DNA from: a virus
Lineage: Duplodnaviria > Heunggongvirae > Uroviricota > Caudoviricetes
Length of the DNA stretch: 64,000 nt
Direction: 5' to 3' (one strand)
IMG/VR virus record: IMGVR_UViG_3300028840_008153
Span: 99,143-163,142 of that record
In this document: piece after piece, positions 8,901 to 59,783 of the stretch
How positions within the stretch are numbered: the stretch's first letter is position 1
Layout of the letters: each line of letters opens with the position of its first letter
Made by a program: the position numbers and the translations under genes
Notes under the pieces: generated by a model
The model's database searches: none
What the model saw: the letters and a program-made list of their open reading frames with translations, nothing else
Told to the model about the DNA's origin: nothing

Positions 8901-9497
8901 GTGCCAAGTCTTCTGCCACCACGTGGGCCTTACCTCTACATTCTCCACGAACTTGTCACGGAAGGATTTATGAGATCCAGGCGGGTTTCGCCCCTGTGCC
9001 AGCACCTTGAGCATGGGCACGAACTCACTGGGATCGTTGCGCACGGGCGTGCCGGTGAGGAACATGACCTTGCCGTGGGCCTTTGTCGGGAGCTTGCTGA
9101 CTTTCGTGCCTGGCCGACCCATCCGATGTGCCTCATCGAAGACGGTTAGACCGGCCTGTGGCAAACCTTTGCTCACAGCCTTGTTATAAGACCGCACATC
9201 GTAGTCTGGTGCGCCCTCTGGCTGGTCGGTGAACTTCGACAGCTCCTTGCGGTAGTTCTCACGAAGCGCAGCAGGCACCACAACTGCTTTGGGGCCCTCG
9301 GTTTGCTCGCCTGCGGCGATGCTGGAGAGCGTCTTGCCCGATCCCAAGGCGTGATAGGCCAGAAGTGCAGGCTGTTGCTCCATCTTGGCAACAACACGCT
9401 CCTGCTGAGGCTGCATTTCCACCTCAGGCTTCAATGCGGCCTTCTTGGCTCTCTGCTTGGCGATCTTGATCAGGCCCATTTCGGAACCCATTCCCAA
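5859..9497 (-). CDS. SNF2-family helicase fused to a LigD-like 3'-phosphoesterase plus ATP-dependent ligase (nucleotidyltransferase) domain
   Basis: 1212 aa. N-terminus: GSGKT (motif I), DEAHR (II), LTGTPVRND (III), QMTGRAVRHGSH (VI). Middle: HYDVRLGREGGEPSLYSWATRKELP (LigD phosphoesterase HYDLR...SWAVPKG signature). C-terminus: KVDG (ligase motif I), YEGVVAW (IV), AIKVKPRP (V). Confidence 0.7.
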   Translation of the reverse strand: MGMGSEMGLIKIAKQRAKKAALKPEVEMQPQQERVVAKMEQQPALLAYHALGSGKTLSSIAAGEQTEGPKAVVVPAALRENYRKELSKFTDQPEGAPDYDVRSYNKAVSKGLPQAGLTVFDEAHRMGRPGTKVSKLPTKAHGKVMFLTGTPVRNDPSEFVPMLKVLAQGRNPPGSHKSFRDKFVENVEVRPTWWQKTWHGVKPGMVERLRNQQELKRLVKGRVDYHPLEGDFPRVEEEDIEVEMTPEQTAMYEAFLNEDVGLAYKVKKNLPPSKAESAQLNAFLSAVRQLSNNPMPFDETMKGSAVAHSPKLRRMLGDLYKGLESDPNFKAVVYSNYLQSGILPLAEALEKKGVPHHVFTGGLKDSERREIVEDYNSGNVKILLVSGAGSEGLDLKGTKLMQLMEPHWNQSRLDQMTGRAVRHGSHAHLPEEERVVKVRRYFSNPKRGLMQRWGMVEKDTGADQYMSNLSETKQQLITQFLEVLKESSEEANRGLEIRKAAELLWDDTELPKSQDFLWELAEKITGLPTIEKKAALPYFKAQHLTNVEPDFYQMGKEFFRGNDPRGQIYGEAVADMDLANWKKSKLTDVPLGTELFSKGKQVGLQIPSSQKDVAGRIAPLLALFDVPEGDPEFARKSVASLREFAERAGHGLTPENTELAERLLHGHWKKQQGLLGAIRRNKLLTALAAVGVPVASYGGYKLLKKGEADYAPGLPDPKRFGDPRQIPHGEVLKWVVQRHLAQKAGPHYDVRLGREGGEPSLYSWATRKELPEPGKKIMLYQQPLHRGQYAEFEGNIEEGYGKGTVKKHDYGSVIVTKAERDKIQFVVTHKRFPEFYTMVRMSGPPSAAGARQRKQQGGAWLMINTTPVSAAKLLKGKPEEVGIKKLKYGVVPADKVEKLFDPNYMIQEKVDGASALYHLLGDRIEALSYRISKTGRPILYTYKIFGPGGAKVDIPKELQGTIVRGEVYGEREGKAVPVQELGGILNAALSNSLEKQKAQNVQMRNMLFDVVRWGKTPIEPGTLTGEERMQKLQELMKHLPDRQFRLPETARTPEEQKALYERIVSGEHPATYEGVVAWPAARPGRAIKVKPRPEHDVWIQNVFPGKGKYEGAAGGFDYSLSPTGPIVGKVGGGFDDATRRQMMDEAEDWKGRLARISAMEKFPSGAYRNPAFISLHHDYPLAKSGAILRKRALRRKLSCATKDSDEKKKPSS

Positions 9498-9736: not shown

Positions 9737-10030
9737 TCAGCCGTCGTCTTCCTCCCACTCGGGGATCTCCACGACCTGACCTGCCAACTCGTGCGTGCAG
9801 TCGTCACAGAAATGCATCTTGCCGTCCCTGATGAAGCTGTGACAGCGTTTGTCTCCCGGTTTGTCCCCGTACCTCACCAGCAGGCTGGGATTGCACGTGG
9901 GCTTGTCCAGATCGCCGTTGAACTCCCAGCATGGTCCGGGGCCGCCTGTCTTGATCTGATGGTTGTCCTTGCAGCCGGGGCACCAGAACAGGAAGCGCTC
10001 GTTGTTCACGAATGCGTGGAACTTAGCCAT
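9737..10030 (-). CDS. Cys-rich zinc-finger-like small protein (97 aa)
   Basis: CPGC...C...C...H...CDDC pattern. Confidence 0.5.
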   Translation of the reverse strand: MAKFHAFVNNERFLFWCPGCKDNHQIKTGGPGPCWEFNGDLDKPTCNPSLLVRYGDKPGDKRCHSFIRDGKMHFCDDCTHELAGQVVEIPEWEEDDG

Positions 10031-12597: not shown

Positions 12598-14469
12598 CTA
12601 GCCTGCGGGGGCCATCTGCGACAGCACCTGTTGCTGCCCGATAGAGGCCGCCTGTTGTCGTACGTCTGAGAGTTTCTGCATGACGAGCGCGTGAAGCGTC
12701 TCGTTGGTCTTCTTGATGTTGAGCAACTCGGAGCGTCGCACCGGGTAAGGCGCGTTGACCAGCTGCATGGCAATGTTCTCGGCCTGAGCCATCATGTCCT
12801 GCGGGGTCACGCCGGGACCCTGTACGCCCGGGGCGCCTCCACCCATGGGAGGCATGGGTCCGGCCGGAGCCCCAGCCGGCGGAGCGCCTGCAGGGGCGGT
12901 CTGCATGGGCGGTCCACCTGGCGCACCTGGGGGTGCGATGCCTGCGGAGCCCTGCTGCATGGCCGCGTGAAGCTCCTGCTTCTGCGCCTGGTCCTCAGCG
13001 AACTCCTGCATGACCTGCTGAGAGTATTCCTCCTCCTCGAACATTCGGCGGATCTCTTCACGGAAATTGATGCCGAAGGGGGCGTAAGCCGTCTGGCGGC
13101 TGATCATGTGGCCTGAAGCCAGCTGAAGCTGAATCTGCTTCTTCTCAAGGTCGTCGGCCAGCGTCACTGGCTGGAGCTTGAGTTTGACCTGCTCCCAATT
13201 GAGCAGGCTGGAAAGATTGTTGGCAAGCCACTGAAGCAGACGATCGAGTCCATGAACAAGATGGACCCACGTCCGCTCGAAGAGACGCAGCGCCACGGGC
13301 ATGGCCTGGATCGTCAGGCTGCCACGGTAAAGCTCGGCCGGCACGCCCTGCGCGTTGAGGAACTCGTCCATTCCCGATGTGATAAGTTCTTGTGGCGAAA
13401 GGGACTTACCGTCTGCCGAGAGCATCTCCATCCTGACCGGGAAGGGTAGCGCATGAAGCGATGTCGGGTCGCGCCTGTGCTTCTTGAACATCTCCATGAC
13501 GCGGTTGTTGAACATGCCCAGATTCATGTGGAGAAGCGGATCGGCCTCTCGTGAGGTGCCCGGAGCCGGCGTCACCACGCGGAAGGGCACGATGTAATCC
13601 ATGGCGATGGCTTCGTTGTAGCGCTTGAGCACCTGAATGTACCACGCCTGCCTGAAATTGGACAGGATGAGCGGAATGCCCCAGCCTGCGGTGCGGATGC
13701 CGGAGGGCGCGAAGTCCTTCATGTGGAAAAGCACGCCCTGGTTGAAGCGAAACATCTCGTTCTTCTTGACGGCCTCGACGACTTCCCACGGCGTGTCTTC
13801 GAGATAGAAGCGGTTGCCCTTCTTGATGAAGCTCTTGACGCGCTCGGGGATCTCCCACATGTACTCGGTGCGGTCCGTGACTTCGTTGTGGATCGTGCGG
13901 ATCTCGTGAACGTTCCAGTGCTTGAGCTTGATCTTGTCCTCAGCCACGGACGTGCGATCGACACGCTTGAATTCGCCCTTGTGTTTGCACTTCTCATTGG
14001 GGCATGTGCCGTGAAAACCCCAGTTGTCCCATTTCCACTCCACGCGCTTGATGGGGTACTCGGACTGGCATGCCTGGCAGCGCAGGTGGCGGCGGAAGGG
14101 AACCTGAAGTGAAATGACCTCGTTGCCGTAGGTCATGAAGTTGTCGCCGGCACGGGCCAGTTCGCCTACGACGCCCATCTCCTCAAGGGTTTCCTCGTAC
14201 TTCTCCTTCTCGTTGTCGGAGGCGTCGTGGATCTCGACCTTCGTCAGGAAGTAGCGCACGACACGCTGAGCGGCCGTGCGATAGATGCCCCACGAGATCC
14301 AGACAAACTCGGCCCAGCGCATGACATCGTAGAGGCTGCGCGGCATCTGCGTGGACGAGTAGTCGAGGAAGGGGTCGGGAAACGTCTCGGCAAACCGGTT
14401 GAACTTGGCGGTGTTGTCGCCGGTCGTGGTCAACGGGAAGGCAGGAAACGACGCGAGTTGGGAGGACAT
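12598..14469 (-). CDS. Large virion-associated protein, possibly portal (623 aa) with an internal Zn-ribbon and a Q/G/P/A-rich C-terminal tail
   Basis: Its size, its place beside a scaffold-like gene and its low-complexity C-terminus (GAPGGPPMQTAPAGAPPAGAPAGPMPPMGGGAPGVQGPG) fit a portal. CQAC...CPNEKCKHKG zinc ribbon. The portal assignment is inference only. Confidence 0.45.
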   Translation of the reverse strand: MSSQLASFPAFPLTTTGDNTAKFNRFAETFPDPFLDYSSTQMPRSLYDVMRWAEFVWISWGIYRTAAQRVVRYFLTKVEIHDASDNEKEKYEETLEEMGVVGELARAGDNFMTYGNEVISLQVPFRRHLRCQACQSEYPIKRVEWKWDNWGFHGTCPNEKCKHKGEFKRVDRTSVAEDKIKLKHWNVHEIRTIHNEVTDRTEYMWEIPERVKSFIKKGNRFYLEDTPWEVVEAVKKNEMFRFNQGVLFHMKDFAPSGIRTAGWGIPLILSNFRQAWYIQVLKRYNEAIAMDYIVPFRVVTPAPGTSREADPLLHMNLGMFNNRVMEMFKKHRRDPTSLHALPFPVRMEMLSADGKSLSPQELITSGMDEFLNAQGVPAELYRGSLTIQAMPVALRLFERTWVHLVHGLDRLLQWLANNLSSLLNWEQVKLKLQPVTLADDLEKKQIQLQLASGHMISRQTAYAPFGINFREEIRRMFEEEEYSQQVMQEFAEDQAQKQELHAAMQQGSAGIAPPGAPGGPPMQTAPAGAPPAGAPAGPMPPMGGGAPGVQGPGVTPQDMMAQAENIAMQLVNAPYPVRRSELLNIKKTNETLHALVMQKLSDVRQQAASIGQQQVLSQMAPAG

Positions 14470-34591: not shown

Positions 34592-35210
34592 GGCCCACCC
34601 GCAAGCGCGTGGAGGCACCGTCCGTATCCGATCGATCTCAGAATCGATCACCGGCTCACCCGCAAGCGCGTGGAGGGGCCCTCGGGATCGCTGCGATGCA
34701 GCGGCCCACCCGCAAGCGCGTAGAGGTACCTACTCGGCCATGGCTGACGCGAATTCCTCTGAGGGCCCACCCGCAAGCGCGTGGAGGTACCTTGAGGGGG
34801 GGGCTGTCCTCACGGCCATCACGTACGACCCACCCGCAAGCGCGTGGAGGTACCCTGGTGCTGAAGTGGGTCGGAACTCCCACCCGCAAGCGCGTGGAGG
34901 TACCCTGGTGCTGAAGTGGGTCGGAACTCGGGACACGGGCCCACCCGCAAGCGCGTGGAGGTACCGGGCTATATTTTTTTTCAGACGGTGAAGTAGCACG
35001 GCCCACCCGCAAGCGCGTGGAGGTACCCAGATGTCTCCCCACTCGTAAGTGTGAGGCTCCGGCCCACCCGCAAGCGCGTGGAGGTACCGCTCTCAGTCCA
35101 GATCAGCCCACTATTCTTGGGGGCCCACCCGCAAGCGCGTGGAGGTACCACTTCTGTGGCGCCGGTTTTGGCTTTTGGGATGGGCCCACCCGCAAGCGCG
35201 TGGAGGTACC
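34592..35210. CRISPR. CRISPR-like array 1: 11 repeats of 28 nt (GGCCCACCCGCAAGCGCGTGGAGGTACC), spacers mostly 33 nt
   Basis: Repeat starts read directly at 34592, 34653, 34703, 34764, 34826, 34876, 34937, 35000, 35061, 35122 and 35183. The two leftmost repeats are degenerate, so the trailer is at the low-coordinate end. The repeat can fold as CCAC-CCGC-AAGC-GCG-TGG. Spacers are unique except spacer 5, a 22-nt prefix copy of spacer 6. Confidence 0.8.
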
Positions 35211-35320
35211 TCTATGACAAAATGACATGGTTTGGGTGGTCAGCTCATGGAGCTTGGTGATTACTGGAGCAGTCCCTCCAGCCTGGCGCTCACCCCGGGC
35301 GCGAAGCCATGCCATTGGTA
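35211..35320. other. Leader-like flank shared by both arrays (copy 1)
   Basis: About 85 nt, GGTCAGCTCATGGAGCTTGGTGATTACTGGAGCAGTCCCTCCAGCCTGGCGCTCACCCCGGGCGC, is nearly identical at 38463..38540. It contains the hairpin CTGGAG-cagtcc-CTCCAG. Confidence 0.5.
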
Positions 35321-35321
35321 A

Positions 35322-36044
35322 TCAACTGAACTTCTTGATGATCTTCGCCAGCTCTTTCACGCTGGTGCGAACCACCTGACGCATGTTGTGTCCTACACAC
35401 TCCGCCAGAAGATACCTTGCATCGTTCGGGTCCTCCAGGACGTTGATGATGCGAAGATACTTCGGCTGCCGCGTCTTGGGACGCCGCTCATGGGGAGGGA
35501 TCTCTCCCCGTTCGGGACGGTCATAGTCGAAGATCACCTTGGCCTCTTCGGCTGTGACCTTGCTGAAGTTCTTCTCGACGGCCGTGTTCTTCTTGATCAC
35601 GACTGTCGTGGCGTCGGCATTGATGCGCTTCTGCGTTTCTTCGGGCAGCCTCAGGAAAAGATCCGTGGTCACCCATTCCTTCTCGAACGCGACCTTGCTC
35701 ATCACGCCCGCGCCGTACGCGTGGATCTTGGTGAAAAGGCCGTACGAAATGCCAGAACCAGCAACCACTTCGTTGTAGAACTCCTCCACCTGGTGGTCGG
35801 CGAGCTGGCCGATCTTCTTCTTGTGTTTCAGAAGCACCTTGCGCATGCCGGCTTTGTAGGCGACCTTGAGCTTCTCGATCTCCTTGCCGACAGCCTCGCA
35901 CAGCTTCTCAAACTCAGCCTCAGGAAGACCGGAGCCCCCCAGTCCCGGAGGAATTCGTCGAGGGGGCTTGCATGCTGGACTAATCCGTGCCATCCGTTGC
36001 CTCCTTTTTCCTTTTTCCGTAGCTGCTGACAGAGTCCACGACAT
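35322..36044 (-). CDS. Uncharacterised protein (240 aa, or 223 aa from the alternative start at 35993) encoded between the two arrays
   Basis: The alternative start MARISPACKPP (ATG 35993) has an AAGGAGG RBS at 7 nt spacing and overlaps the 575-aa gene's stop by 14 nt. No recognisable family; a Gly-rich segment VVAGSGISYGLFTKIHAYGAG. Confidence 0.5.
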   Translation of the reverse strand: MSWTLSAATEKGKRRQRMARISPACKPPRRIPPGLGGSGLPEAEFEKLCEAVGKEIEKLKVAYKAGMRKVLLKHKKKIGQLADHQVEEFYNEVVAGSGISYGLFTKIHAYGAGVMSKVAFEKEWVTTDLFLRLPEETQKRINADATTVVIKKNTAVEKNFSKVTAEEAKVIFDYDRPERGEIPPHERRPKTRQPKYLRIINVLEDPNDARYLLAECVGHNMRQVVRTSVKELAKIIKKFS

Positions 36045-37707
36045 CCGTGGAAATCTCCTTCATCAGATCCTGCAGCTTGACCAAACGCTGCTCTTCCCCT
36101 TCGGCAACCTCCTTCCGTTTGAGCTTGATCTGGGCCTCCTCTTCTTCCTCCGACAGGTTTCGGGCCTTGATTTCATCGACGGCGTCGGCCGTCTTTTTCT
36201 TCTTTTCCTCCTTCCACGTGCAGGGCCCGCTGTACGCGATGTAGAATTTCCGGCAGCGCTGGTGCAAGGCTTCATCAAAGAAGGCCCACTGGAAAGGCTC
36301 GATGCCTTCCAGTCGCTCCTCAGGCGTGTTTGGCCCGGGAAGCGCGAACAGGCTGAGGTTGCCGCAGGCCCAAGGCTTCAGCCTTCTTACGATGTTCCGC
36401 GCCAAAATCCTGATTTCCTGCTCCACCACCTTCGCCCTGCGGACGGATAGGTCCTGCAACTGCGCTCGCCATTTGGTTGCTGCCCGGCTGCGTCCATCGA
36501 CGGACTGTATGAGGTCCTTCAGCTTGTTCTTTCTCTGCCGAAGGTCCTTCAACCGGCGAACCGTGTTGTTCAGCGGAATGTGGTACATGCGCCACTTGTC
36601 CGCCTTTTCCTTGGCGCGCGTCTTCTTCTCGACAGCGACGTGCACGAGGAAGTCCAGCCCCTCATACTTGTTCTCGCCGGGAACCTCCTTGATGTACACG
36701 TACGCGCTGCGCTTGTGCTTCTGGGCCTGCCGTTGAACGGGGGGCCGAACGTAGGACACGTCCAAGAAGAGCCGGTCTTTTCGATCCAGCCGCAAGCAGG
36801 CGCACTGGTACTCCCAAGCAAGTTGCTCGACGACCTTGACCTTGCCGGTCTTCTTGTTCTTCTGCAGCTTCGGAGCCGGCTGCGGCATGAAGTGGTTGAA
36901 CACGCTGGCGGAGACGTCATCCAGCTTTTTCACCTCCGTCTTCGTCTTCCCGTTCTGCCCCATTTCAAACGGTCCTTTTGTGAGCAACCGAATGGGCGTG
37001 TCCGTGTGTGGCTCGATATTGAGTGAGAACCCCCACTTCTCCAGAATGCCGTCTTCATCGTCCTCCTCACGCTCCTTGAAGGGAACGAACTCCCGCCGGG
37101 TCTCATAACCCATGATCTTCAGCGTCGAGTGCTCCATCAAAGGAAGCGCCCTTTCCATGGAGACATGAAGAATGTCCCTGGAAATGCCCCTGCGCGGGTC
37201 CTTCGTCGTGAGCGCCGCCTTCACGTCTGAGCGCATGCAGTCCCAAACGGAAGCCTTGAAGCGGAAGGGATGATGCTTGTCGTGAGCGAATTCCTCCATC
37301 ATGGCCGCCCACTCGCCGTGAAGGCCGTAGTAGGTCACGTTGGGGTTGAAGTCCGTCCCCCGCGTCACGAGCGCCAGGAACTGCTCGATCCGCTCCCTGT
37401 CAAGCTCCGCGCGAATGTCACCGTCCTTCGTGAAGTGAAGTCTGCCCCCTAAACGAAGGCAGGCACCCCCGATGTCCACGAGCCGCTGGAGCATGAAACG
37501 GTAAGCCTGCAACATCCTGATGACCCGTTGTCTCTCCTCGAAGGTCTCGCAAACGACCCTGAAGGAGTGGCAGCACTGAAGCCAATCTTCCTGGCCGGGT
37601 TTGTTCAACGCGCCCGGCTTCCGGCCGTCGCCTCGAACCCCGCGCTTCCCTTTTTTCTTGGTCTTCTTCTTGGTTTTCTCTGCGGCCTTTTTCAGTAGCA
37701 CGGCCAT
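35980..37707 (-). CDS. Uncharacterised 575-aa basic protein between the arrays; candidate nucleic-acid-binding effector
   Basis: Real ATG at 37707 (MAVLLKKAAEKTKKKTKKKGKRG...) with AAAGGAGG RBS; the track ORF starts at GTG 37734. Lys-rich N-terminus, scattered Cys clusters (QCAC, WACGN, CRK...GPC), and a C-terminal TADAVDEIKARNL that weakly resembles a RuvC-III (DADxNAAxNI) motif. Confidence 0.6.
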   Translation of the reverse strand: MAVLLKKAAEKTKKKTKKKGKRGVRGDGRKPGALNKPGQEDWLQCCHSFRVVCETFEERQRVIRMLQAYRFMLQRLVDIGGACLRLGGRLHFTKDGDIRAELDRERIEQFLALVTRGTDFNPNVTYYGLHGEWAAMMEEFAHDKHHPFRFKASVWDCMRSDVKAALTTKDPRRGISRDILHVSMERALPLMEHSTLKIMGYETRREFVPFKEREEDDEDGILEKWGFSLNIEPHTDTPIRLLTKGPFEMGQNGKTKTEVKKLDDVSASVFNHFMPQPAPKLQKNKKTGKVKVVEQLAWEYQCACLRLDRKDRLFLDVSYVRPPVQRQAQKHKRSAYVYIKEVPGENKYEGLDFLVHVAVEKKTRAKEKADKWRMYHIPLNNTVRRLKDLRQRKNKLKDLIQSVDGRSRAATKWRAQLQDLSVRRAKVVEQEIRILARNIVRRLKPWACGNLSLFALPGPNTPEERLEGIEPFQWAFFDEALHQRCRKFYIAYSGPCTWKEEKKKKTADAVDEIKARNLSEEEEEAQIKLKRKEVAEGEEQRLVKLQDLMKEISTDVVDSVSSYGKRKKEATDGTD

Positions 37708-37818
37708 GTGGCCTCCTTTCAAAGCGCCTCCCACGGGAGGCTCAGGTCATGGACCCTGACGATTGCCGGAGCTTCCGGCATAACGCTCGCCCTAAGCGCA
37801 AACACGAATGACGAGATC

Positions 37819-38462
37819 GGCCCATCCCCACACGTATGGGGCAGCCTCAAAATCAAAGCGGTAAACTGCCGTCCCCATCGGCCCACCCCCAACTGAAAAA
37901 GGAGAACGGAACGGGTCCATCCCTACGCGTATGGGGCAGCCGCCAGCAACATCCTGCGCCACAGCCCTTGACTCGGCCCATCCCTACGCGTATGAGGCAG
38001 CCGCATGGAAATGCGTGGGCAAGTTGACGGATGAGGGCCCATCCCCACTGACACCATCTCAGACGCGCTGCGGCCCATCCCCATGCGCGTGGGGCAGTCG
38101 CGCAACTGCCGAACTGCTGAATCTACGTAGCGGGCCCATCCCGCGTGTATGGGGAAGCCTGGGACCGCGCTGAAGACCCGGCTACCGGGCGGGCCCATCC
38201 CCACGCGTACGGGGCAGCCCCCCCCTCGGGCAGTATCCGTGCTCCTCGGTCCACGGCCCATCCCCGCGCGTATGGGGCAGCCAACGAGGTACTGCTGGGG
38301 CAGGTGCAGGCCCTGGGCCCATCTCCACGCGTATAGGGCAGCGGCACAGACAATGGGAGGATAGCCATGAAAGAGGGCCCATCCCCACGCGTATGGGCAG
38401 CCCGGACATACTCGCAGACCGCAGGATGCACGCCGGGCCCATAAGCCAATATGACACAGGTG
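37819..38462. CRISPR. CRISPR-like array 2: about 10 degenerate repeats of 28 nt (GGCCCATCCCCACGCGTATGGGGCAGCC), spacers 32-36 nt
   Basis: Repeat starts at 37819, 37914, 37975, 38072, 38133, 38192, 38255, 38316 and 38375. Heavily mutated units sit at 37880 and 38036, with a truncated remnant at 38435. Repeat hairpin is CCCCA-cgcgta-TGGGG. It shares the 5' GGCCCAYCC with the array-1 repeat. The array looks decaying, with 1-3 mismatches per repeat. Confidence 0.7.
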
Positions 38463-38540
38463 GGGATGGTCAGCTCATGGAGCTTGGTGATTACTGGAGC
38501 AGTCCCTCCAGCCTGGCGCTCACCCCGGGCGCAAAACCGT
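38463..38540. other. Leader-like flank shared by both arrays (copy 2)
   Basis: Near-identical to 35228..35315. Confidence 0.5.
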
Positions 38541-38607
38541 GTCATAGAAATTGGCTGTACTTTATTTTAACGCAAACGCGCGGAGAAATTAGGGGGCGCC
38601 GGTAGGG

Positions 38608-39879: not shown

Positions 39880-40231
39880 GCTCTCGTTGATAACGTCCTT
39901 CTCTGCGGGCAATTTCAGCCACCTCCCGAAGAGCGATGATGATGCGGGGCTCACTGCCCCGCCGGATGAAAGGCACCGTCTCCCCGTGGCCGGGAAGCGC
40001 ATATTGGATCTGCACGCGGTTCGTGCTCGGCGACCAGTTGATGACGTACTCGTCCCGCCTGAACTGGTAGCCATGCTCCACCCGCAGGATCTCAATGCCG
40101 GCCGACTCACACAGCTGCCGGATCTGGGGCATGATGCGAGCCGCGCGATCCTTGCGCTTGCGTTTGTAGAGCTTTCGGACCTTGCGAGCGGTCTTCCAGT
40201 ATTCAGACATCGGAATCGGTTCCGAAATCAC
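39869..40231 (-). CDS. Hypothetical basic protein (120 aa)
   Basis: ORF. Confidence 0.4.
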   Translation of the reverse strand: MISEPIPMSEYWKTARKVRKLYKRKRKDRAARIMPQIRQLCESAGIEILRVEHGYQFRRDEYVINWSPSTNRVQIQYALPGHGETVPFIRRGSEPRIIIALREVAEIARREGRYQREHEA

Positions 40232-40455
40232 CTGAAGAGCTTCCGAAGCAGCCGCACGATCTCCCCCTCATGAGGGAATCTACCCTCTTCTCGCTTCGAC
40301 CACACGACCTTCTCGTTGACAACGACCTCGAAGCGGCCCTTGCCGACGTCCTCCGTGGAGCACTTGATGCCCAAATACTTCTCGATTTCCCCGGCGACCC
40401 GCCGGGCATTGGGCTCGCCCCCTCACATCAGGCAGAACTTGATGCTGATTTGCAT
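40228..40455 (-). CDS. SelW/Rdx-family selenoprotein (75 aa) with in-frame TGA (Sec) at codon 11
   Basis: Minus-strand translation is MQISIKFCLM-U-GGEPNARRVAGEIEKYLGIKCSTEDVGKGRFEVVVNEKVVWSKREEGRFPHEGEIVRLLRKLFR. CLMU is the CxxU redox motif and GRFEVxVN...SK...GRFP is the Rdx-family core. AGGAGA RBS 6 nt upstream of the ATG at 40455. The TGA sits at 40425..40423. A SECIS-like hairpin CCCGGCG-GGU-CGCCGGG begins 17 nt downstream of the UGA. Missing from the ORF track because of the internal TGA. Confidence 0.6.
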
Positions 40456-40721
40456 TTACGTCTCCTGTCGGGAAACTCGGCACGAAAATCCTCGTCCGGC
40501 GGCTCGTACTCCAGTGTGCCGTCGCTGGCCGCATACCAGTATCCCAAATCCAGTATGTCAAAGCCAGTGTCCAGTTCCCCGTAGGTTTCCTTGTGCTCGT
40601 CCAGATCGAACTTGAGGATGGTGACCTCCATCGCCTCCTGAATCTCGTGCAGGTTCAAAGGCAGCCCGATCTCGTTGATCTCGAAGTCTCCGTTGGAGGA
40701 GTGTACGACCATTTCCGCCAT
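40428..40721 (-). CDS. Hypothetical acidic protein (97 aa)
   Basis: ORF; overlaps the selenoprotein start by 28 nt. Confidence 0.4.
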   Translation of the reverse strand: MAEMVVHSSNGDFEINEIGLPLNLHEIQEAMEVTILKFDLDEHKETYGELDTGFDILDLGYWYAASDGTLEYEPPDEDFRAEFPDRRRKCKSASSSA

Positions 40722-40956
40722 AAGAACTCCTGATTAATGAGCCGTGCGGGCACTCGATTAGCCATGGCCCGCTATCGAAGGACGCTTTCGGGCCTACGTC
40801 TACCGGCCCAGCCCCTCGGAAGGGGGAGAACTCCGGGGACCTTCACCCTAGGCGCAACCCTTCTCGTATATCACGGATTTGTCGCCGGCTTTAAGAGGGA
40901 GGGACGCTCGCGTCGGAGGCCGCCCCTCGCAGCCTGACGTGCCCGCACAGCTCAAC

Positions 40957-41619
40957 TCACTTGTTTCCATGCTTCTTGAGCCAGTCTTCCGTGGCTTTCC
41001 CCGGCGGGGGAAGCCACGGATCTTTAGGGTCCGGCTTCACCTCTTTCTTCTCAGCCTTCTTTGGCTCCGGTGCAGGCTCCGGCACGGGCGCCGGAGCAGG
41101 CGCTGGTTCGGGAGCCGCTGGAAGCAGTTCCCTGATGTTCTTGACGGTTACGGCCATCTCCTTGGGGAGCTTTACGGCCTCGCCCTTCACCCGAATGATC
41201 TGCGGCTCCTTCGTCTTCGGATCGAGCATCACCACGAAGGTGCTGACGCTGGGCGATGGTACAGGTTCCCTTGGAAGGGAAACCACAGGTGTCGGCTGGC
41301 TGGCGATGGCCGCCGCCAGCGTGGTGTGAAGCTGCTCCTGCTGAACTTTTGCTTCACGCTGTCCGTCCACCACTCCGGCTCCGTAGCCCCAACGCCAGCC
41401 GAAGAACAGGGCCAGGCCCACGGTCAGAAAACAGCCCAGCCAAGTCAGAATCAGGATCTGGGCCAGGTGTGCCCCTCGCATGTTCGAGATCTGAAGCGGC
41501 CCCGGGCGCTTGATGGCGTCGATCCGGTCCAGGACGGCCTGCGGCACCGTTGGTTTAACGTCTGCAGTCGACGGTGCTTCCGGCTGGACGTTGGTGGAAC
41601 CCTCTGCGCTTTGCACCAT
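40957..41619 (-). CDS. Membrane protein with a Pro-rich C-terminal region (about 220 aa)
   Basis: Real start near MVQSAEG...; TM helix AQILILTWLGCFLTVGLALFFGW; PEPAPAPAPVPEPAPEPKK. The first roughly 167 codons of the track ORF are Ser/Arg/Thr-rich read-through. Confidence 0.4.
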   Translation of the reverse strand: MVQSAEGSTNVQPEAPSTADVKPTVPQAVLDRIDAIKRPGPLQISNMRGAHLAQILILTWLGCFLTVGLALFFGWRWGYGAGVVDGQREAKVQQEQLHTTLAAAIASQPTPVVSLPREPVPSPSVSTFVVMLDPKTKEPQIIRVKGEAVKLPKEMAVTVKNIRELLPAAPEPAPAPAPVPEPAPEPKKAEKKEVKPDPKDPWLPPPGKATEDWLKKHGNK

Positions 41620-42271
41620 TCGGCCTGATTCCTTTCCAAAACTTGTGGAAAGGCAGTCCCTGTTGCCGGACCGCCTCCCCAAGCAATGTGTCGCCCCCAT
41701 TATGCTCCAAGCGCGGGTCGGGCCAATCCAAAAGCTCCTGCACGTCGCGTCGAAGCCACCAGTAGCTTCCCTGAGCAAACTCCACGATGGGTCTGGTTCC
41801 GCGCATCTTGGGCGGCAGCCCCTTATACCAGCTCGACTGCTTGATGAACTCCATCTGCCCCGGCAAGTAATCGACGAACCAGGGCTGGCCCACGTAGCAG
41901 ATGTTCTCGTTCTCACGGGCCTCGATGTACTCTCGCATTTGGTCGAACCACTTGGTGCCGTTGTCCTGCAGTTCGAGGCGTGAGTCGTCGTCAAACCAGA
42001 CGACCCACTTCTGGTTCGTGAGCTTGCTGAACATCCGCCGCATCGCCACGTACTTGTGCGTATTGCCCGGCTCATGGACGTAGCGCGTGTTGTTCGACGG
42101 GTTTCGACAGAACTGCTCAATGATCTTGAGGGACTCTGCTCCCGGCTCGTTGAGCCAGAGCAGCGCCTGGGTAACTTCAGGCTTGTGTGTCAGGATTCCC
42201 AGAACGTGCCGGTGAAGGTCGGGGTAGTCGCCGTACACCAGCGCGTGAATCTTCACTTCCTCTGGTTTCAT
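41555..42271 (-). CDS. Glycosyltransferase-like protein with a DxD motif
   Basis: Real start MKPEEVKIHALVYG...; WVVWFDDDS (DxD); overlap with the upstream stop. Confidence 0.45.
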   Translation of the reverse strand: MKPEEVKIHALVYGDYPDLHRHVLGILTHKPEVTQALLWLNEPGAESLKIIEQFCRNPSNNTRYVHEPGNTHKYVAMRRMFSKLTNQKWVVWFDDDSRLELQDNGTKWFDQMREYIEARENENICYVGQPWFVDYLPGQMEFIKQSSWYKGLPPKMRGTRPIVEFAQGSYWWLRRDVQELLDWPDPRLEHNGGDTLLGEAVRQQGLPFHKFWKGIRPNGAKRRGFHQRPAGSTVDCRR

Positions 42272-42819
42272 TAAAAGTCCTTCCATCCAGCGGCCCACTG
42301 CTTGCGCTCCACAGTCAGCCACTGCGCCGTAATGGCCTTGGAGAACCGAACATGAAGCAGCGCGCAAAGCGCATCGGCCTCCCATGTCGTGCAGTGACAT
42401 CCGATGTGCCACGACGTCGCGCAGGCCCCGGAGTCGGTGAGCAGAAAACCATTGTTCTTGACCAGGTCCACCACCTGCTTGCGCATGGACCCGCCGATCA
42501 TGGCGTTGTGCTTGCGTACGCCCTCAACGGCGTTCGGGGTGTTCTTCAGCTGCTGTACGGCCTCCTTGACGGTGTCCTCCCCCGCCTCGGTCTTGCCGCG
42601 CACGTCCACCATCCAGCAGCAGATGTGAGGAAAGACGTGAGGAAGCGACGACAGCCTGGAAACCACTTTCTGGCACTCCATGGCTGCCGCCCCAATGGCC
42701 TGCTGCCGCGCCTGGGCCTGTTCGGGGTCCATGGGGCCTTCGTTCGGCCCTTCAGCCAGCACGCCATTATACTTCTCCATGGCAGCCAGCAGCTGACGTT
42801 TGGCTTCCTCAACTGTCAT
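42271..42819 (-). CDS. Hypothetical protein (about 182 aa)
   Basis: Trimmed to MMTVEEAKRQLLAAMEKYNG. Confidence 0.4.
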   Translation of the reverse strand: MTVEEAKRQLLAAMEKYNGVLAEGPNEGPMDPEQAQARQQAIGAAAMECQKVVSRLSSLPHVFPHICCWMVDVRGKTEAGEDTVKEAVQQLKNTPNAVEGVRKHNAMIGGSMRKQVVDLVKNNGFLLTDSGACATSWHIGCHCTTWEADALCALLHVRFSKAITAQWLTVERKQWAAGWKDF

Positions 42820-57939: not shown

Positions 57940-58016
57940 TGGTAGCGGGGGCAGGACTTGAACCTGCGACCTCCGGGTTATGAGCCCGACGAGCTGCCTA
58001 ACTGCTCCACCCCGCA
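57940..58016 (-). tRNA. tRNA-Met (anticodon CAT), initiator-type
   Basis: Minus-strand sequence TGCGGGGTGGAGCAGTTAGGCAGCTCGTCGGGCTCATAACCCGGAGGTCGCAGGTTCAAGTCCTGCCCCCGCTACCA. It has three G-C pairs at the base of the anticodon stem, an A11:U24 pair and an unpaired 1:72 position (U·U), with CCA encoded. About 85% identical to E. coli tRNA-fMet. Confidence 0.85.
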
Positions 58017-58058: not shown

Positions 58059-59783
58059 TCAAACCTCCACCGCCTCGATTTCGCCAACCCACTTCGCCGG
58101 GCTCAACCCATCCTTGGCGAACATGGAAACGACGTCGAACACGGTGTCCGAGAACCCGCCGACCTGCAGGATGCTGGGATCGCCAGCGCCCTTCACCTGC
58201 GTGGTCGAGTACGGCGTGATGTCGAGACACACCAGCTTCGCCTGCTTGTTGTGGCGTTTGAACCTCTGCCACGCCTTCTGAAGCTCGGTGCCGCGCCGGC
58301 CGCCATACGGGTGGGTACTGTCAATCCAGCTCTCGTAGTCCGAGACCAGGATCACGGTGTCCGCCGGGATGTTGTTGTCGTTGAGGTGATTCACCGTCAA
58401 CGAACAGTTCGTCCCGCCCGAAGGCAGCTCCGACAGGATGCGGGCGTTTGTCATGACCGTATCCCGTGGGTTGAGCCTTGGGTACTCGGACATGGTCGTC
58501 TGGTTGCCAAAGTAGTAGGCGCGCTGCTGCACGCGCCGACCGGGGAGCGCAAGATGATCACTGAACGGGATCACCTGGGCTTCCGGGTTCTTGCGCAAGA
58601 TCGCCGCCGCCATCAACGCCGCCACGTGGACACAGCTCGTCTTCGTGGAGTGGCCTCTCGGCCCCCGGCTCTGAGTGACCGGGCTGTGCATGCTCCCTGA
58701 GATATCAGGGAACACGAACACTCGGCCCTCGATTGCCGGCACGTTCTCGATGGCGACTTCCATCGCCTGTTCAAGCGCGGCCTGAACGGACTGCGGGATC
58801 TCCGGGTTGAGGTTCAGGTAGGCGGTCAGCAACTGGTACGGAAACTGACGGGCCTTCGTGATCTCTTCCCGGTTCTGCAGCCGATTCTCGACCTTCTGGC
58901 GCAGCTCCGCGTTTCCCAACACCCCGTACTTCAGGAAGTTGTTGAGGTTCATGCGCGTGAACTGCCACCTGCCGTTCCGGGCCAGGATCTTCCATTCGGC
59001 CTCGCCGATGCCGACGCCGTCGAGCATCTGGAAGGGCACATCGGGGATCGTCACGTCCTTCACGCCCGCCTTGTGCGCGGTCTTCCAGTTCTCGTATTCC
59101 TTCACCATCTCCGGCAGCTTGTCCGGCTCGTACCGGCGCGTGACCTTCTTGCCCGTAGCGGCAGGCTCCACGCGCTCCTTCCAACCGTCTGGGCCGACCG
59201 GGTCGAAACCCAACAGGTAGCCAAACAGCGCCTCCTTCTGAGGCGTGTTTGGGCTTGGGTGGGCAAGCCGGATCACATCCACGAGAGACGGATCGTTGCC
59301 GACCGAGCCCCGGAAGATGGTCTCCGGGCGGGTGCGATCGAACCAGCGCTGGATCGAGCGCCGCTGCGAAGAAGCCAGCGACTTGCGCCCGAAGACGCCC
59401 GAGCGGACGAACTGCGCGAAGTTGCGCAGCATCTTCGCGTTGTCGATCACCCGATCGAACACCTTGTCGGCCAGGTCACGAGGAGCCTTGCCCAGCGAGA
59501 GGCTCGCCGCCAGGAAGGCCGGCATGTCCTTCATGAGCCCCTTCTCACGGGCGTAGATGGCCAGCTTGGCGATGAACATGTCGTCGACATGCGCGAGCGT
59601 CGACTTGACCGTGTCCAGTTGCCCCTTGGCGGAGACGTAATACGTGTCACCGAAGCATCCGGTGACCGCGTACTGCGCCAAAAGCTCCTTGGGGCCCCGG
59701 CTGTACGCCCGGCCTCCGGCCTCGTTGACGGCATCCGTTTCCGGTGCCTGAGTGTGCGTGCTGAAAAGGCTTTTGTTAGCCAT
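58059..59783 (-). CDS. rsr: Ro60/Rsr orthologue (TROVE plus VWA domains)
   Basis: N-terminal TROVE (…GGRAYSRGPKELLAQYAVTGCFGDTYY…) and C-terminal VWA with the MIDAS motif VFVFPDISGSMHSP; GGGGAGGG RBS. Confidence 0.8.
   Translation of the reverse strand: MANKSLFSTHTQAPETDAVNEAGGRAYSRGPKELLAQYAVTGCFGDTYYVSAKGQLDTVKSTLAHVDDMFIAKLAIYAREKGLMKDMPAFLAASLSLGKAPRDLADKVFDRVIDNAKMLRNFAQFVRSGVFGRKSLASSQRRSIQRWFDRTRPETIFRGSVGNDPSLVDVIRLAHPSPNTPQKEALFGYLLGFDPVGPDGWKERVEPAATGKKVTRRYEPDKLPEMVKEYENWKTAHKAGVKDVTIPDVPFQMLDGVGIGEAEWKILARNGRWQFTRMNLNNFLKYGVLGNAELRQKVENRLQNREEITKARQFPYQLLTAYLNLNPEIPQSVQAALEQAMEVAIENVPAIEGRVFVFPDISGSMHSPVTQSRGPRGHSTKTSCVHVAALMAAAILRKNPEAQVIPFSDHLALPGRRVQQRAYYFGNQTTMSEYPRLNPRDTVMTNARILSELPSGGTNCSLTVNHLNDNNIPADTVILVSDYESWIDSTHPYGGRRGTELQKAWQRFKRHNKQAKLVCLDITPYSTTQVKGAGDPSILQVGGFSDTVFDVVSMFAKDGLSPAKWVGEIEAVEV

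What the first reader, a model, noticed from the sequence alone, without database searches (positions are those of the whole stretch)
40228..40455. Phage-encoded SelW/Rdx-family selenoprotein with a UGA-Sec codon and a SECIS-like hairpin, invisible to a standard ORF caller
The minus-strand ORF reads MQISIKFCLM-[TGA]-GGEPNARRVAGEIEKYLGIKCSTEDVGKGRFEVVVNEKVVWSKREEGRFPHEGEIVRLLRKLFR.

- The TGA at 40425..40423 falls exactly at the CxxU position of the Rdx-family redox motif. The downstream GxFEVxVN...SK...GRFP core is typical of SelW/SelT/Rdx proteins.
- There is a good RBS (AGGAGA).
- A 7-bp hairpin with a GGU apical loop (CCCGGCG-GGU-CGCCGGG, plus strand 40391..40407) starts 17 nt after the UGA. 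That is where a bacterial SECIS lies.

Selenoproteins in phages are rare. It would imply reliance on, or selection for, a host with a selA/selB/selC/selD system.
Basis: partly seen in the sequence, partly recalled or inferred. Interest (0 to 1): 0.8.

Follow-up and report, generated by a model that had tools for sequence, protein, structure and literature searches.

The report
Phage-encoded SelW-like selenoprotein gene
A roughly 200-kb bacteriophage carries a small redox-protein gene whose in-frame UGA almost certainly encodes selenocysteine using the host's machinery; related phages carry the same gene with selenocysteine or cysteine, and I found no earlier report of a phage selenoprotein gene.

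Summary
The minus-strand gene 40455-40228 reads MQISIKFCLM-[TGA]-GGEPN...KLFR. With Cys at the TGA it matches Pfam Rdx end to end (E=8.5e-14) and passes the NCBIfam CXXU_selWTH cut-off. The public database holds only a 48-aa fragment of it.

Orthologues on contigs collinear with the window fall into two groups. Six distinct sequences have TGA at this codon and 18 have TGT/TGC. Nineteen of 20 cellular relatives also have TGA in the same column.

All six Sec forms have a hairpin whose G-containing loop starts 21-23 nt after UGA. Their stem sequences differ. The window's hairpin (40406-40390; the finding's coordinates are one base off) meets every published bacterial SECIS constraint.

TGA is the window's commonest stop codon, so genome-wide recoding is excluded. 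The window is phage: it has a portal homologue, a collagen-like tail fibre and typical large-phage genes. It has no selA, selB, selD or tRNA-Sec, so the host must supply them.

Verdict: a true SelW-like selenoprotein gene in a new setting, with recurrent Sec/Cys switching. Sec insertion, host and function are untested.

Seen in passing: two CRISPR arrays flank a protein with no sequence matches but a Cas12f/TnpB-like predicted fold (34.6-38.5 kb).

The parts
40228..40455 (-). Gene for a 75-residue Rdx/SelW-like protein with Sec at residue 11 (MQISIKFCLM-U-GGEPNARRVAGEIEKYLGIKCSTEDVGKGRFEVVVNEKVVWSKREEGRFPHEGEIVRLLRKLFR). Coordinates include the stop TGA at 40230-40228.
   Evidence: Translation. 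Pfam Rdx full-length match and NCBIfam TIGR02174 above cut-off. Orthologues at a collinear locus. The Cys orthologue P0001 models as an Rdx fold.
40423..40425 (-). In-frame TGA, read as UGA = selenocysteine; the U of the CxxU redox motif C8-L-M-U11.
   Evidence: Same codon is TGA in L002, L003, L008, L034/L035 and L036. It is TGT/TGC in L001, L006, L007, L009 and L033. Nineteen of 20 cellular relatives have TGA in this column.
40432..40434 (-). Cys8 codon (TGC), the partner cysteine of the CxxU motif.
   Evidence: Invariant Cys in all clade members. It lies at the end of strand beta1, just before helix alpha1, in the model of the Cys orthologue.
40390..40406 (-). SECIS-type hairpin CCCGGCG-GGU-CGCCGGG: 7-bp stem, 3-nt loop GGU at 40399-40397, loop starting 23 nt after the UGA.
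   Evidence: Hairpin energy -14.1 kcal/mol. Meets all four bacterial SECIS constraints listed in PMC13188914. A hairpin at the same position occurs in all other Sec forms, with different stem sequences. Cellular SelW-like genes carry theirs at 21-22 nt in 16 of 19 cases. It is not followed by a T-run and is not called as a terminator.
40370..40413 (-). Possible extended SECIS: a lower stem (CCCAA...UUGGG) enclosing the hairpin. Tentative.
   Evidence: Best single-hairpin fold is -17.5 kcal/mol for the window and -14.8 for L002, where the lower stem is CCCAUG...CAUGGG. L002 and L003 are nucleotide-identical over this whole stretch. Not tested further.
40461..40466 (-). Ribosome-binding site AGGAGA, 5 nt upstream of the ATG.
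   Evidence: Read directly from the sequence.

Best explanation
The minus-strand gene 40455-40228 is an intact selenoprotein gene in the genome of a large tailed phage of about 198 kb.

**Product.** It encodes a 75-residue thioredoxin-fold protein of the Rdx/SelW-like family. Its redox motif is Cys8-Leu-Met-Sec11.

**How the UGA is read (inferred from the established bacterial pathway).** While the ribosome translates the mRNA in an infected cell, the hairpin 40406-40390 presents its GGU loop 23 nt downstream of the UGA. The host's SelB-GTP-Sec-tRNASec complex binds that hairpin and delivers selenocysteine at UGA instead of termination. The window encodes none of this machinery, so the host must supply it.

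**Function (inferred).** The protein most likely acts as a small thiol/selenol oxidoreductase during infection. Its substrate is unknown.

**Evolution.** The gene sits at a conserved locus in a clade of related phages, and the catalytic residue has switched between Sec and Cys several times. The likeliest reason is that it tracks whether the host can decode Sec.

**Shown here:** the reading frame, family membership, fold (on a 75%-identical orthologue), Sec/Cys pairing, hairpin anatomy and its conservation, phage origin, and normal use of TGA as a stop.

**Inferred:** actual Sec insertion, dependence on host SelA/B/C/D, the biochemical role, and the reason for the switching.
For: 1. **Family.** Pfam Rdx E=8.5e-14 over the whole profile. 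The ten residues before the TGA add 14 bits over the post-TGA part alone. TIGR02174 CXXU_selWTH scores 47.7 bits against a 34.2 cut-off. The clade profile hits every solved Rdx structure.

2. **Fold.** The AlphaFold2 model of the 75%-identical Cys orthologue P0001 has pLDDT 94.1. Its CxxC lies between beta1 and alpha1. The top 22 PDB matches are all Rdx family, TM 0.72-0.91.

3. **Sec/Cys pairs.** Six distinct TGA forms and 18 Cys forms share the hallmark CxM[U/C]GG.

4. **Translation across the TGA.** The codons before the TGA change mostly synonymously: ATC/ATT, TTC/TTT, TGC/TGT, CTG/TTG/CTA.

5. **Orthology.** All contigs with DNA are collinear with window 39-46 kb at 45-75% amino-acid identity.

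6. **Cellular relatives.** Nineteen of 20 have TGA in the same column. Their SECIS loops lie 21-22 nt after the UGA in 16 of 19.

7. **SECIS.**
 - The window hairpin meets the published constraints: loop 3-9 nt, stem 4-16 bp, G in the first two loop positions, spacing 16-37 nt, energy at or below -7.5 kcal/mol.
 - All six Sec forms have a hairpin at 21-23 nt, with loops GGU, CGUGU or CGGGU.
 - The stems differ in sequence: CCCGGCG/CGCCGGG, CGGCA/UGCCG, GGCUGAG/CUCAGCC, GCUGAU/AUCAGC and GG.CUUC/GGAG.CC.
 - The window and L002/L003 differ by a G-C to A-U change at the loop-closing pair.
 - L002 and L003 differ at 39 of the 61 codons outside the hairpin region, 26 of those differences synonymous. 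They share 14 consecutive identical codons over the hairpin. My arithmetic from those counts: about 4e-4 for no synonymous change in 14 codons.

8. **No recoding.** TGA ends 51 of 86 crude gene calls, and coding density is 94% under table 11.

9. **Phage origin.**
 - The 623-aa protein at 12598-14469 matches the portal of Salmonella phage Arash (E=3e-50) and proteins of ~187-kb Vibrio phages.
 - A collagen-like tail fibre is present.
 - ThyX, MazG, Ro60, a crAss001_48-like protein and DUF7227 are also present.
Against: - No experiment shows Sec insertion.
- The host is unknown. The window contains no selA, selB, selD or tRNA-Sec, and neither do the related contigs held.
- The hairpin alone is not statistically unusual. 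About 6.6% of random TGAs in this GC-rich window pass a strict test, and folding z-scores are only -0.8 to -1.2.
- The hairpin of the divergent Sec form L008 is weak, at -2.8 kcal/mol.
- Two of five Cys forms keep a hairpin at the same place: L033 at -11.1 and L009 at -6.2. The structure therefore does not cleanly separate Sec from Cys forms. L033 is sister to the Sec form L034, so its hairpin may be vestigial.
- All sequences come from metagenome assemblies. There are only six Sec forms, and two of them are close relatives.
- The fold was modelled on an orthologue, not on the window protein itself.
Confidence: 0.83

Rival explanations
1. The gene is a pseudogene. A single-base change (TGC or TGT to TGA) destroyed the active-site cysteine codon, and the gene is decaying.
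For: Cys forms are the majority in the clade, 18 against 6. TGT/TGC to TGA needs only one substitution. The nearest neighbour of the window protein is a Cys form, P0001, at 75% identity.
Against: - TGA recurs at exactly this codon in six distinct sequences from different samples, scattered across the tree.
- Every one keeps an intact start, an intact frame and a full-length downstream ORF.
- Synonymous changes dominate between TGA forms, 26 synonymous against 13 non-synonymous for L002 versus L003.
- All six carry a hairpin at the SECIS position.
- Cellular homologues use TGA in the same column.
Confidence: 0.04
2. The UGA is read through, but not as selenocysteine. A suppressor or near-cognate tRNA inserts Cys, Trp or Gly, or the host uses a reassigned code, and the hairpin merely stimulates read-through.
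For: - tRNAs resembling tRNA-Sec that carry Cys identity and an opal anticodon have been described in Deltaproteobacteria (PMC5389517).
- Cys at this position would be functional, as the Cys orthologues show.
- The identity of the inserted amino acid cannot be tested with these tools.
Against: - TGA is the main stop codon of this genome, ending 51 of 86 crude gene calls. A host that reads UGA as sense would mis-extend most phage proteins.
- The position, loop motif and spacing of the hairpin match bona fide SECIS elements of cellular SelW-like genes.
- The site is the catalytic CxxU position, where Sec is the rule in the family (PMC1088965).
Confidence: 0.05
3. The TGA is a genuine stop. Only a 10-residue peptide is made, or only the 48-residue C-terminal fragment from the TTG at 40374 that gene callers predict.
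For: Public gene calls give exactly this 48-aa product, P0002. Start codons (ATG or TTG) occur at the same place in several Sec forms.
Against: - The 48-aa fragment lacks strand beta1, the redox motif and most of helix alpha1 of the Rdx fold.
- Codons 1-10 and 12-27 are conserved as coding sequence in this frame across Sec and Cys forms, with synonymous substitutions.
- Cys forms read straight through as a single ORF.
- The RBS precedes the upstream ATG.
Confidence: 0.03
4. The gene is a real selenoprotein gene, but the window is not a phage. It could be a cellular island, a plasmid or a mis-assembled chimera, in which case the finding is an ordinary bacterial SelW-like gene.
For: - No close relative exists in GenBank phages or IMG/VR.
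- Major capsid protein and terminase were not identified within this 64-kb window.
- Many genes in the window are of cellular type: PfkB, Band 7, a cold-shock protein and methyltransferases.
Against: - The window has a portal homologue of ~180-kb phages, a helicase whose best match is in the same phage, and a collagen-like tail fibre with multiple PHROG tail hits.
- It also has a crAss001_48-like protein, ThyX, MazG and HD.
- The window has one tRNA, no rRNA, near-unidirectional dense coding, and a large majority of genes of unknown function.
- The Rdx clade is distinct from cellular homologues, which are at most 44% identical. It is found only on similar contigs rich in hypothetical genes, some reaching 57-175 kb.
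Confidence: 0.05

Closest known systems
Bacterial SelW-like (Rdx family, CxxU) selenoproteins. This was the most abundant selenoprotein family in the Sargasso Sea metagenome (PMC1088965).
   Same: - Same Pfam and NCBIfam family and the same thioredoxin-like fold.
- Sec at the same column of the CxxU motif.
- An in-ORF bacterial SECIS hairpin with a G-containing loop 21-23 nt after the UGA.
- Coexistence of Sec and Cys homologues.
   Different: - It is encoded by a phage.
- It forms a separate clade, at most 44% identical to any cellular relative found.
- It has its own motif, CxM[U/C]GG, in place of the cellular CxxU[N/G/S]Y.P.
- Cys forms are the majority in the phage clade, while Sec forms dominated among the cellular relatives retrieved.
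Poxvirus glutathione peroxidase selenoproteins, from molluscum contagiosum virus and fowlpox virus (reviewed in PMC8310308).
   Same: A virus-encoded selenoprotein that depends entirely on the host's Sec-insertion machinery. In fowlpox the SECIS also lies within the coding region.
   Different: - Eukaryotic viruses with a eukaryotic SECIS type, SBP2/eEFSec machinery and the GPx family.
- Here the virus is a bacteriophage, the SECIS is the bacterial SelB type lying just downstream of the UGA, and the family is Rdx.
tRNA-Sec genes predicted in phage genomes: Basilisk-like Bacillus phages (PMC6145125) and huge phages from wastewater (PMC10747093).
   Same: Both link phages to the selenocysteine decoding system. 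Those papers speculated that phages might encode selenoproteins.
   Different: Those reports identify a tRNA but no selenoprotein gene. Here a selenoprotein gene is identified, but no tRNA-Sec is present in the 64 kb available or in the related contigs held.
Phage-encoded thioredoxin and glutaredoxin-type redox proteins, such as T4 NrdC. This comparison rests on my own knowledge and was not tested here.
   Same: A small thioredoxin-fold protein with a CxxC-type active site, carried by a large lytic phage and presumably supplying reducing power during infection.
   Different: It belongs to a different family (Rdx rather than Trx/Grx) and uses selenocysteine in some members. It has no known partner enzyme and is not adjacent to ribonucleotide reductase or ThyX in the window.

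Membership tests
Rdx / SelT-SelW-SelH family (Pfam PF10262, NCBIfam TIGR02174) | Profile match above the curated cut-off over the whole domain. | tested here: met
   PF10262 scores 52 bits against a 22.6 cut-off, covering profile positions 1-74 of 74. TIGR02174 scores 47.7 bits against 34.2. NF041051 (the Campylobacterota equivalog) scores 67 bits against 88, so it is not that specific subfamily.
Rdx / SelT-SelW-SelH family (Pfam PF10262, NCBIfam TIGR02174) | Thioredoxin-like beta-alpha-beta-beta-beta-alpha fold. | tested here: met
   AlphaFold2 model of the Cys orthologue P0001, 75% identical to the window protein: pLDDT 94.1. The top 22 Foldseek PDB hits are all Rdx-family structures (2p0g, 2fa8, 3dex, 2ojl, 2obk, 2oka, 2ljk), with TM 0.72-0.91. 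The window protein itself could not be submitted because of the U.
Rdx / SelT-SelW-SelH family (Pfam PF10262, NCBIfam TIGR02174) | CxxC or CxxU redox motif between strand beta1 and helix alpha1. | tested here: met
   C8-L-M-U11. Residues 8-11 lie between E3-8 and H13-28 in the model. Cys8 is invariant in the clade.
Bacterial selenoprotein gene (UGA-Sec with in-ORF SECIS) | In-frame UGA aligned with Cys in homologues, with coding conservation on both sides. | tested here: met
   Eighteen Cys orthologues and six TGA forms. Synonymous substitutions occur on both sides of the TGA. Nineteen of 20 cellular relatives have TGA in the same column.
Bacterial selenoprotein gene (UGA-Sec with in-ORF SECIS) | Bacterial SECIS consensus model: loop 3-9 nt, upper stem 4-16 bp, G in the first two loop positions, 16-37 nt from UGA to loop, energy at or below -7.5 kcal/mol (PMC13188914). 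| tested here: met
   Window: loop GGU, 7-bp stem, 23-nt spacing, -14.1 kcal/mol. Scored the same way, L002 and L003 give -8.1 and L034 gives -12.0, all passing. L036 at -7.0 is borderline and L008 at -2.8 fails. As a positive control on cellular SelW-like genes, 12 of 19 pass the energy threshold. bSECISearch itself was not available.
Bacterial selenoprotein gene (UGA-Sec with in-ORF SECIS) | The structure is conserved while the sequence varies (covariation). | tested here: inconclusive
   Stem sequences differ completely between subgroups while pairing is kept. There is one G-C to A-U change between the window and L002/L003. Only six sequences are available, the register shifts by 1 nt between subgroups, and two Cys forms keep a hairpin. 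No formal covariation statistic was attempted.
Bacterial selenoprotein gene (UGA-Sec with in-ORF SECIS) | Sec-decoding machinery (selA, selB, selC, selD) available in the translating cell. | not testable with these tools
   The host is unknown. None of these genes occurs in the window or on the related contigs held. The remaining ~134 kb of the source contig could not be retrieved.
Bacterial selenoprotein gene (UGA-Sec with in-ORF SECIS) | Selenium actually incorporated at the UGA position. | not testable with these tools
   This needs 75Se labelling, mass spectrometry or a reporter assay.
Tailed bacteriophage genome (Caudoviricetes) | Virion hallmark genes and phage-like gene content. | tested here: met
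   Portal homologue at 12598-14469, matching the annotated portal of Salmonella phage Arash at E=3e-50. Tail fibre at 1257-4055, phrog_5073 at E=5.5e-31. A crAss001_48-like protein, ThyX, MazG and an SNF2 helicase whose best hit is also Arash. Major capsid protein and terminase were not found within this window.

The most novel reading that the evidence does not exclude
This is the first identified bacteriophage selenoprotein gene. It belongs to a conserved gene of a clade of ~140-200-kb phages in which the catalytic residue switches repeatedly between Sec and Cys to match the Sec-decoding capacity of the current host. The Sec or Cys state, and any vestigial SECIS such as the one in L033, would then be a readable record of host range and host switching. 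The unseen part of these genomes may carry Sec-pathway components such as tRNA-Sec.
Probability: 0.4. Interest if true: 0.8.

Novelty: new member of a known kind. Interest (0 to 1): 0.66.

Why it matters
- **It closes a gap.** Selenoprotein genes have been catalogued in bacteria, archaea, eukaryotes and two poxviruses. A 2026 review of the prokaryotic selenoproteome does not mention phages (PMC13188914). A 2021 marine survey found selenoprotein families to have no or very few viral sequences (PMC9402790). Papers reporting phage tRNA-Sec genes could only speculate that phage selenoproteins exist (PMC6145125, PMC10747093). A concrete gene with Sec and Cys orthologues supplies the missing piece.
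- **It affects annotation.** Standard gene callers truncate such genes, so virome annotations miss them systematically.
- **It gives a testable host marker.** Sec-form phages should infect Sec-utilising hosts, and Cys-form phages should infect hosts without that ability.
- **It offers a natural experiment.** Closely related Sec and Cys pairs, 87% identical, allow study of Sec/Cys exchange and SECIS decay.
- **It is small enough for reporter work.** The UGA-plus-SECIS module is about 45 nt.

Tried and rejected
- **Genome-wide TGA reassignment (code 4 or 25): rejected.** TGA is the commonest stop codon, and coding density is 94% under table 11.
- **Hairpin as an intrinsic terminator: rejected.** It has no T-run and is not called by the terminator scan.
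- **Folding energy against shuffles as evidence: uninformative.** In this 60% GC sequence the z-scores are only -0.8 to -1.2.
- **"Hairpin present only in Sec forms": rejected as stated.** The Cys forms L033 (-11.1) and L009 (-6.2) keep one. L033 is read as a possible vestigial SECIS, since it is sister to the Sec form L034.
- **Searches that found nothing:**
 - GenBank phages by DNA and by protein.
 - IMG/VR by protein, by alignment and by DNA pattern.
 - JGI metagenome contigs by alignment.
 - JGI metagenome contigs by DNA pattern, which gave two chance hits that are not Rdx.
 - GTDB genomes using N-terminal patterns.
- **Source contig not retrievable.** The look-up for P0002 failed, so the other ~134 kb could not be searched for sel genes.
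- **Host and environment could not be inferred.** Cellular relatives are only 28-44% identical and spread over many phyla. Sample accession numbers matched no paper.
- **Other selenoprotein genes in the window:** a crude scan gave 12 candidates. One is the Rdx gene and one is the upstream ORF's TGA stop (40430-40428) read through in another frame. By my own frame arithmetic the seven other minus-strand candidates are out of frame with the long ORF they lie in. The three plus-strand candidates were not checked.
Full report
**1. Observation**

On the minus strand an ORF starts at ATG 40455-40453. It is preceded by AGGAGA at 40466-40461 with a 5-nt spacer. It reads MQISIKFCLM, then TGA at 40425-40423, then continues in frame for 64 codons to the stop at 40230-40228.

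The hairpin CCCGGCG-GGU-CGCCGGG is real. It occupies 40406-40390, one base off the coordinates in the finding. Sixteen nucleotides separate it from the UGA, so the loop starts 23 nt after the UGA.

A mechanical ORF list shows only a 48-aa TTG-initiated fragment. The public protein database holds exactly that fragment, P0002, from a 198,524-bp JGI contig. The gene is indeed invisible to standard callers.

**2. Family membership**

- With Cys in place of the TGA, the protein matches Pfam Rdx (PF10262) over the whole profile at E=8.5e-14. With X the E-value is 1.4e-11, and the post-TGA part alone gives 2.3e-9. The ten residues upstream of the TGA therefore add to the score.
- NCBIfam TIGR02174 (CXXU_selWTH) is passed, 47.7 bits against 34.2.
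- A profile of the clade hits all solved Rdx-family structures by sequence.
- An AlphaFold2 model of the 75%-identical Cys orthologue P0001 is confident (pLDDT 94.1). It has the beta-alpha-beta-beta-beta-alpha topology, with the CxxC motif between beta1 and alpha1.
- The model's top 22 PDB matches are all Rdx-family proteins (TM 0.72-0.91), followed at lower scores by thioredoxins.

**3. The TGA is a sense codon**

Database searches returned close homologues, and I fetched their DNA.

- TGA forms: the window, L002, L003, L008, L034/L035 and L036. That is six distinct sequences with TGA at exactly this codon, each with an upstream ATG and conserved N-terminal codons.
- Cys forms: eighteen distinct homologues read TGT or TGC there. 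Two of them, P0007 and P0035, had simply been given starts that were too short.
- The clade shares the motif CxM[U/C]GG.
- Differences in the ten codons before the TGA are mostly synonymous.
- Of 20 cellular relatives whose match covers the N-terminus, 19 have TGA in the same column (YCxx-TGA). These are classical bacterial SelW-like selenoproteins. The one archaeal relative has Cys.
- Genome-wide recoding is excluded. TGA terminates 51 of 86 crude gene calls, and the window is 94% coding under the standard bacterial code.

**4. SECIS**

The 2026 review PMC13188914 lists the bacterial SECIS model. It requires a 3-9-nt apical loop, a 4-16-bp upper stem, G in one of the first two loop positions, 16-37 nt between UGA and loop, and an energy at or below -7.5 kcal/mol.

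The window hairpin has loop GGU, a 7-bp stem, 23-nt spacing and -14.1 kcal/mol, so it meets every constraint.

Uniform scan at 19-25 nt after the codon:

| Form | Members | Energy (kcal/mol) |
|---|---|---|
| Sec | window, L002, L003, L034, L036, L008 | -13.6, -8.1, -8.1, -12.0, -7.0, -2.8 |
| Cys | L001, L006, L007, L009, L033 | 0, 0, 0, -6.2, -11.1 |

- The Sec-form loops are GGU, CGUGU or CGGGU, starting 21-23 nt after the UGA.
- Their stems are unrelated in sequence: CCCGGCG/CGCCGGG, CGGCA/UGCCG, GGCUGAG/CUCAGCC, GCUGAU/AUCAGC and GG.CUUC/GGAG.CC. Pairing is kept while the sequence changes.
- L002 and L003 differ at 39 of the 61 codons outside the hairpin region. They share 14 consecutive identical codons over the hairpin.
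- As a positive control, cellular SelW-like genes carry loops GUC, GGUCU or GUU 21-22 nt after the UGA in 16 of 19 cases. Twelve of 19 pass the energy threshold. The phage hairpin therefore sits at the homologous place.

Caveats:
- About 6.6% of all TGAs in this GC-rich window pass a strict version of the test.
- Energy z-scores are unremarkable.
- L008 is weak.
- Two Cys forms retain a hairpin. L033 is sister to the Sec form L034 and comes from the same sample, which fits a vestigial SECIS after a recent Sec-to-Cys change.
- A possible lower stem extending the element to 40413-40370 is tentative.

**5. Phage origin and locus conservation**

- The window has 60% GC and is densely and almost unidirectionally coded.
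- It contains a portal homologue at 12598-14469. This matches the annotated portal of the 181-kb Salmonella phage Arash at E=3e-50, and ~187-kb Vibrio phages at 4e-65.
- It has a collagen-like tail fibre and an SNF2-LigD fusion whose helicase part is closest to Arash.
- It also encodes ThyX, MazG, an HD domain, a cold-shock protein, Ro60/TROVE, a caspase-domain protein, a crAss001_48-like protein, DUF7227 and many methyltransferases.
- It has one tRNA (Met) and no SelA, SelB, SelD or tRNA-Sec.
- Every homologue contig with DNA is collinear with the window around the Rdx gene. L007 is collinear over 6.7 kb, corresponding to window 45974 to 39044.
- Other members sit on contigs of 57 to 175 kb.
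- In a neighbour-joining tree the phage clade separates from cellular outgroups, and Sec forms are interleaved with Cys forms. L002 and L003 are 87% identical to the Cys form P0001. This implies several switches, though 75 residues give low resolution.

**6. Mechanism**

Shown here: an intact, conserved Rdx gene with a CxxU site, a SECIS-type hairpin, a phage context, and normal use of TGA as a stop elsewhere.

Inferred from the established bacterial pathway (SelB-GTP-Sec-tRNASec binding the SECIS loop just downstream of the UGA): the host's machinery inserts Sec at codon 11.

The product is most likely a small thiol/selenol oxidoreductase active during infection. Its substrate is unknown, and neighbouring genes give no clue. 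The Sec/Cys alternation plausibly tracks the host's ability to decode Sec. This is a hypothesis.

**7. Comparison with what is known, and novelty**

- The protein is a member of the known bacterial SelW-like family and appears to use the known decoding mechanism. By kind it is a new member, not a new system.
- The context is new as far as I could establish. Searches for phage selenoproteins found none.
- The 2026 review of the prokaryotic selenoproteome does not mention phages or viruses.
- A 2021 marine survey reports that selenoprotein families lack or have very few viral sequences.
- Known viral selenoproteins are the poxvirus GPx homologues.
- Phage tRNA-Sec genes have been reported, with speculation about phage selenoproteins, but no such gene was identified.
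- The library searched covers open-access papers only, so an earlier report elsewhere cannot be excluded.

**8. Seen in passing**

About 2-6 kb downstream of the Rdx gene along the minus strand lie two CRISPR arrays.

- **Arrays.**
 - The first, 34594-35210, has 11 near-identical copies of a 26-nt repeat core (about 28 nt if the recurrent GG is included).
 - Its spacers are mostly unique and 35-37 nt long.
 - The second, 37819-38403, has 9 degenerate repeats.
 - Each array is preceded on the minus strand by the same 87-nt leader-like segment.
- **Genes between them.** One encodes 584 aa (35980-37734) and one encodes 240 aa.
- **Sequence searches.** The 584-aa protein has no Pfam, PHROG, PADLOC, NCBIfam, PDB-sequence or GenBank-phage match. 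It has only 11 distant relatives among 1.84 billion cluster representatives.
- **Predicted fold.** The model (pLDDT 74.7) matches Cas12f at E=8.7e-11. TnpB, Cas12m, Cas12h, Fanzor and CasLambda follow.
- **Open point.** I could not assign a RuvC catalytic triad.

This looks like a compact type V CRISPR-Cas locus that sequence searches cannot recognise, carried by a phage. It deserves a study of its own.

Noticed in passing
window 34594-38545 (minus-strand order: leader 38545-38459, array 38403-37819, ORF 37734-35980, ORF 36044-35322, leader 35315-35229, array 35210-34594): Two CRISPR arrays (11 and 9 repeats of a 26-28-nt unit, spacers mostly 32-37 nt) flank a 584-aa protein. That protein has no hit in any sequence library and only 11 distant relatives among 1.84 billion representatives. 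Its AlphaFold2 model matches Cas12f, TnpB and other Cas12 structures (Foldseek E=8.7e-11). It is probably a compact type V CRISPR-Cas system carried by the phage that sequence searches cannot recognise. The RuvC catalytic residues were not assigned, and spacer targets and any tracrRNA were not examined.
   Followed up: partly
window 57940-58016 (-) and 58059-59783 (-): A Ro60/TROVE-vWA protein gene (574 aa) lies 43 nt upstream of the window's only tRNA call (tRNA-Met CAT, 60.5 bits). Bacterial Ro60 partners with Y-RNA-like RNAs that contain a tRNA-like domain (my own knowledge). The 'tRNA' could therefore be part of such a partner RNA. No Y RNA reached Rfam's gathering score.
   Followed up: no
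L033 3199-3538, L033 5956-7212, L034 3044-4294: The related phage contig L033 (Cys form) encodes a tmRNA with tag peptide AKTNVVRGIFGVRAEALAA. Both L033 and L034 carry an AcrVA2-like gene (PF26125) a few kb upstream of the Rdx gene.
   Followed up: no
L033 about 9930-9970 (Cys-form Rdx gene): This Cys orthologue keeps a strong SECIS-like hairpin, GCUGAC-CGUGC-GUCGGC within a longer imperfect stem, at -11.1 kcal/mol with the loop 21 nt after the Cys codon. Its sister sequence L034 is a Sec form from the same sample. It may be a vestigial SECIS marking a recent Sec-to-Cys conversion.
   Followed up: partly
window 40456-41554: About 1.1 kb lies between the conserved gene at 41555-42412 and the Rdx gene. 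It includes a 97-aa ORF at 40428-40721 whose TGA stop overlaps Rdx codons 9-10. This stretch has no counterpart in L001 and L002, where the two genes are adjacent. L007, L009, L010 and L011 share a short match to window ~41113-41271 but none to the 97-aa ORF. The ORF looks like a window-specific insertion of unknown function.
   Followed up: no
window 5859-9497 (-) and 4957-5904 (-): A 1212-aa fusion protein combines an SNF2-type helicase, a LigD 3'-phosphoesterase domain and an ATP-dependent DNA ligase region. It sits next to a caspase-domain (Peptidase_C14) protein. This is an unusual pairing of DNA repair and protease functions for a phage.
   Followed up: no
proteins P0024, P0030, P0034: Further truncated gene calls of 46-59 aa have sequences typical of the phage clade. 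They may be additional Sec forms.
   Followed up: no
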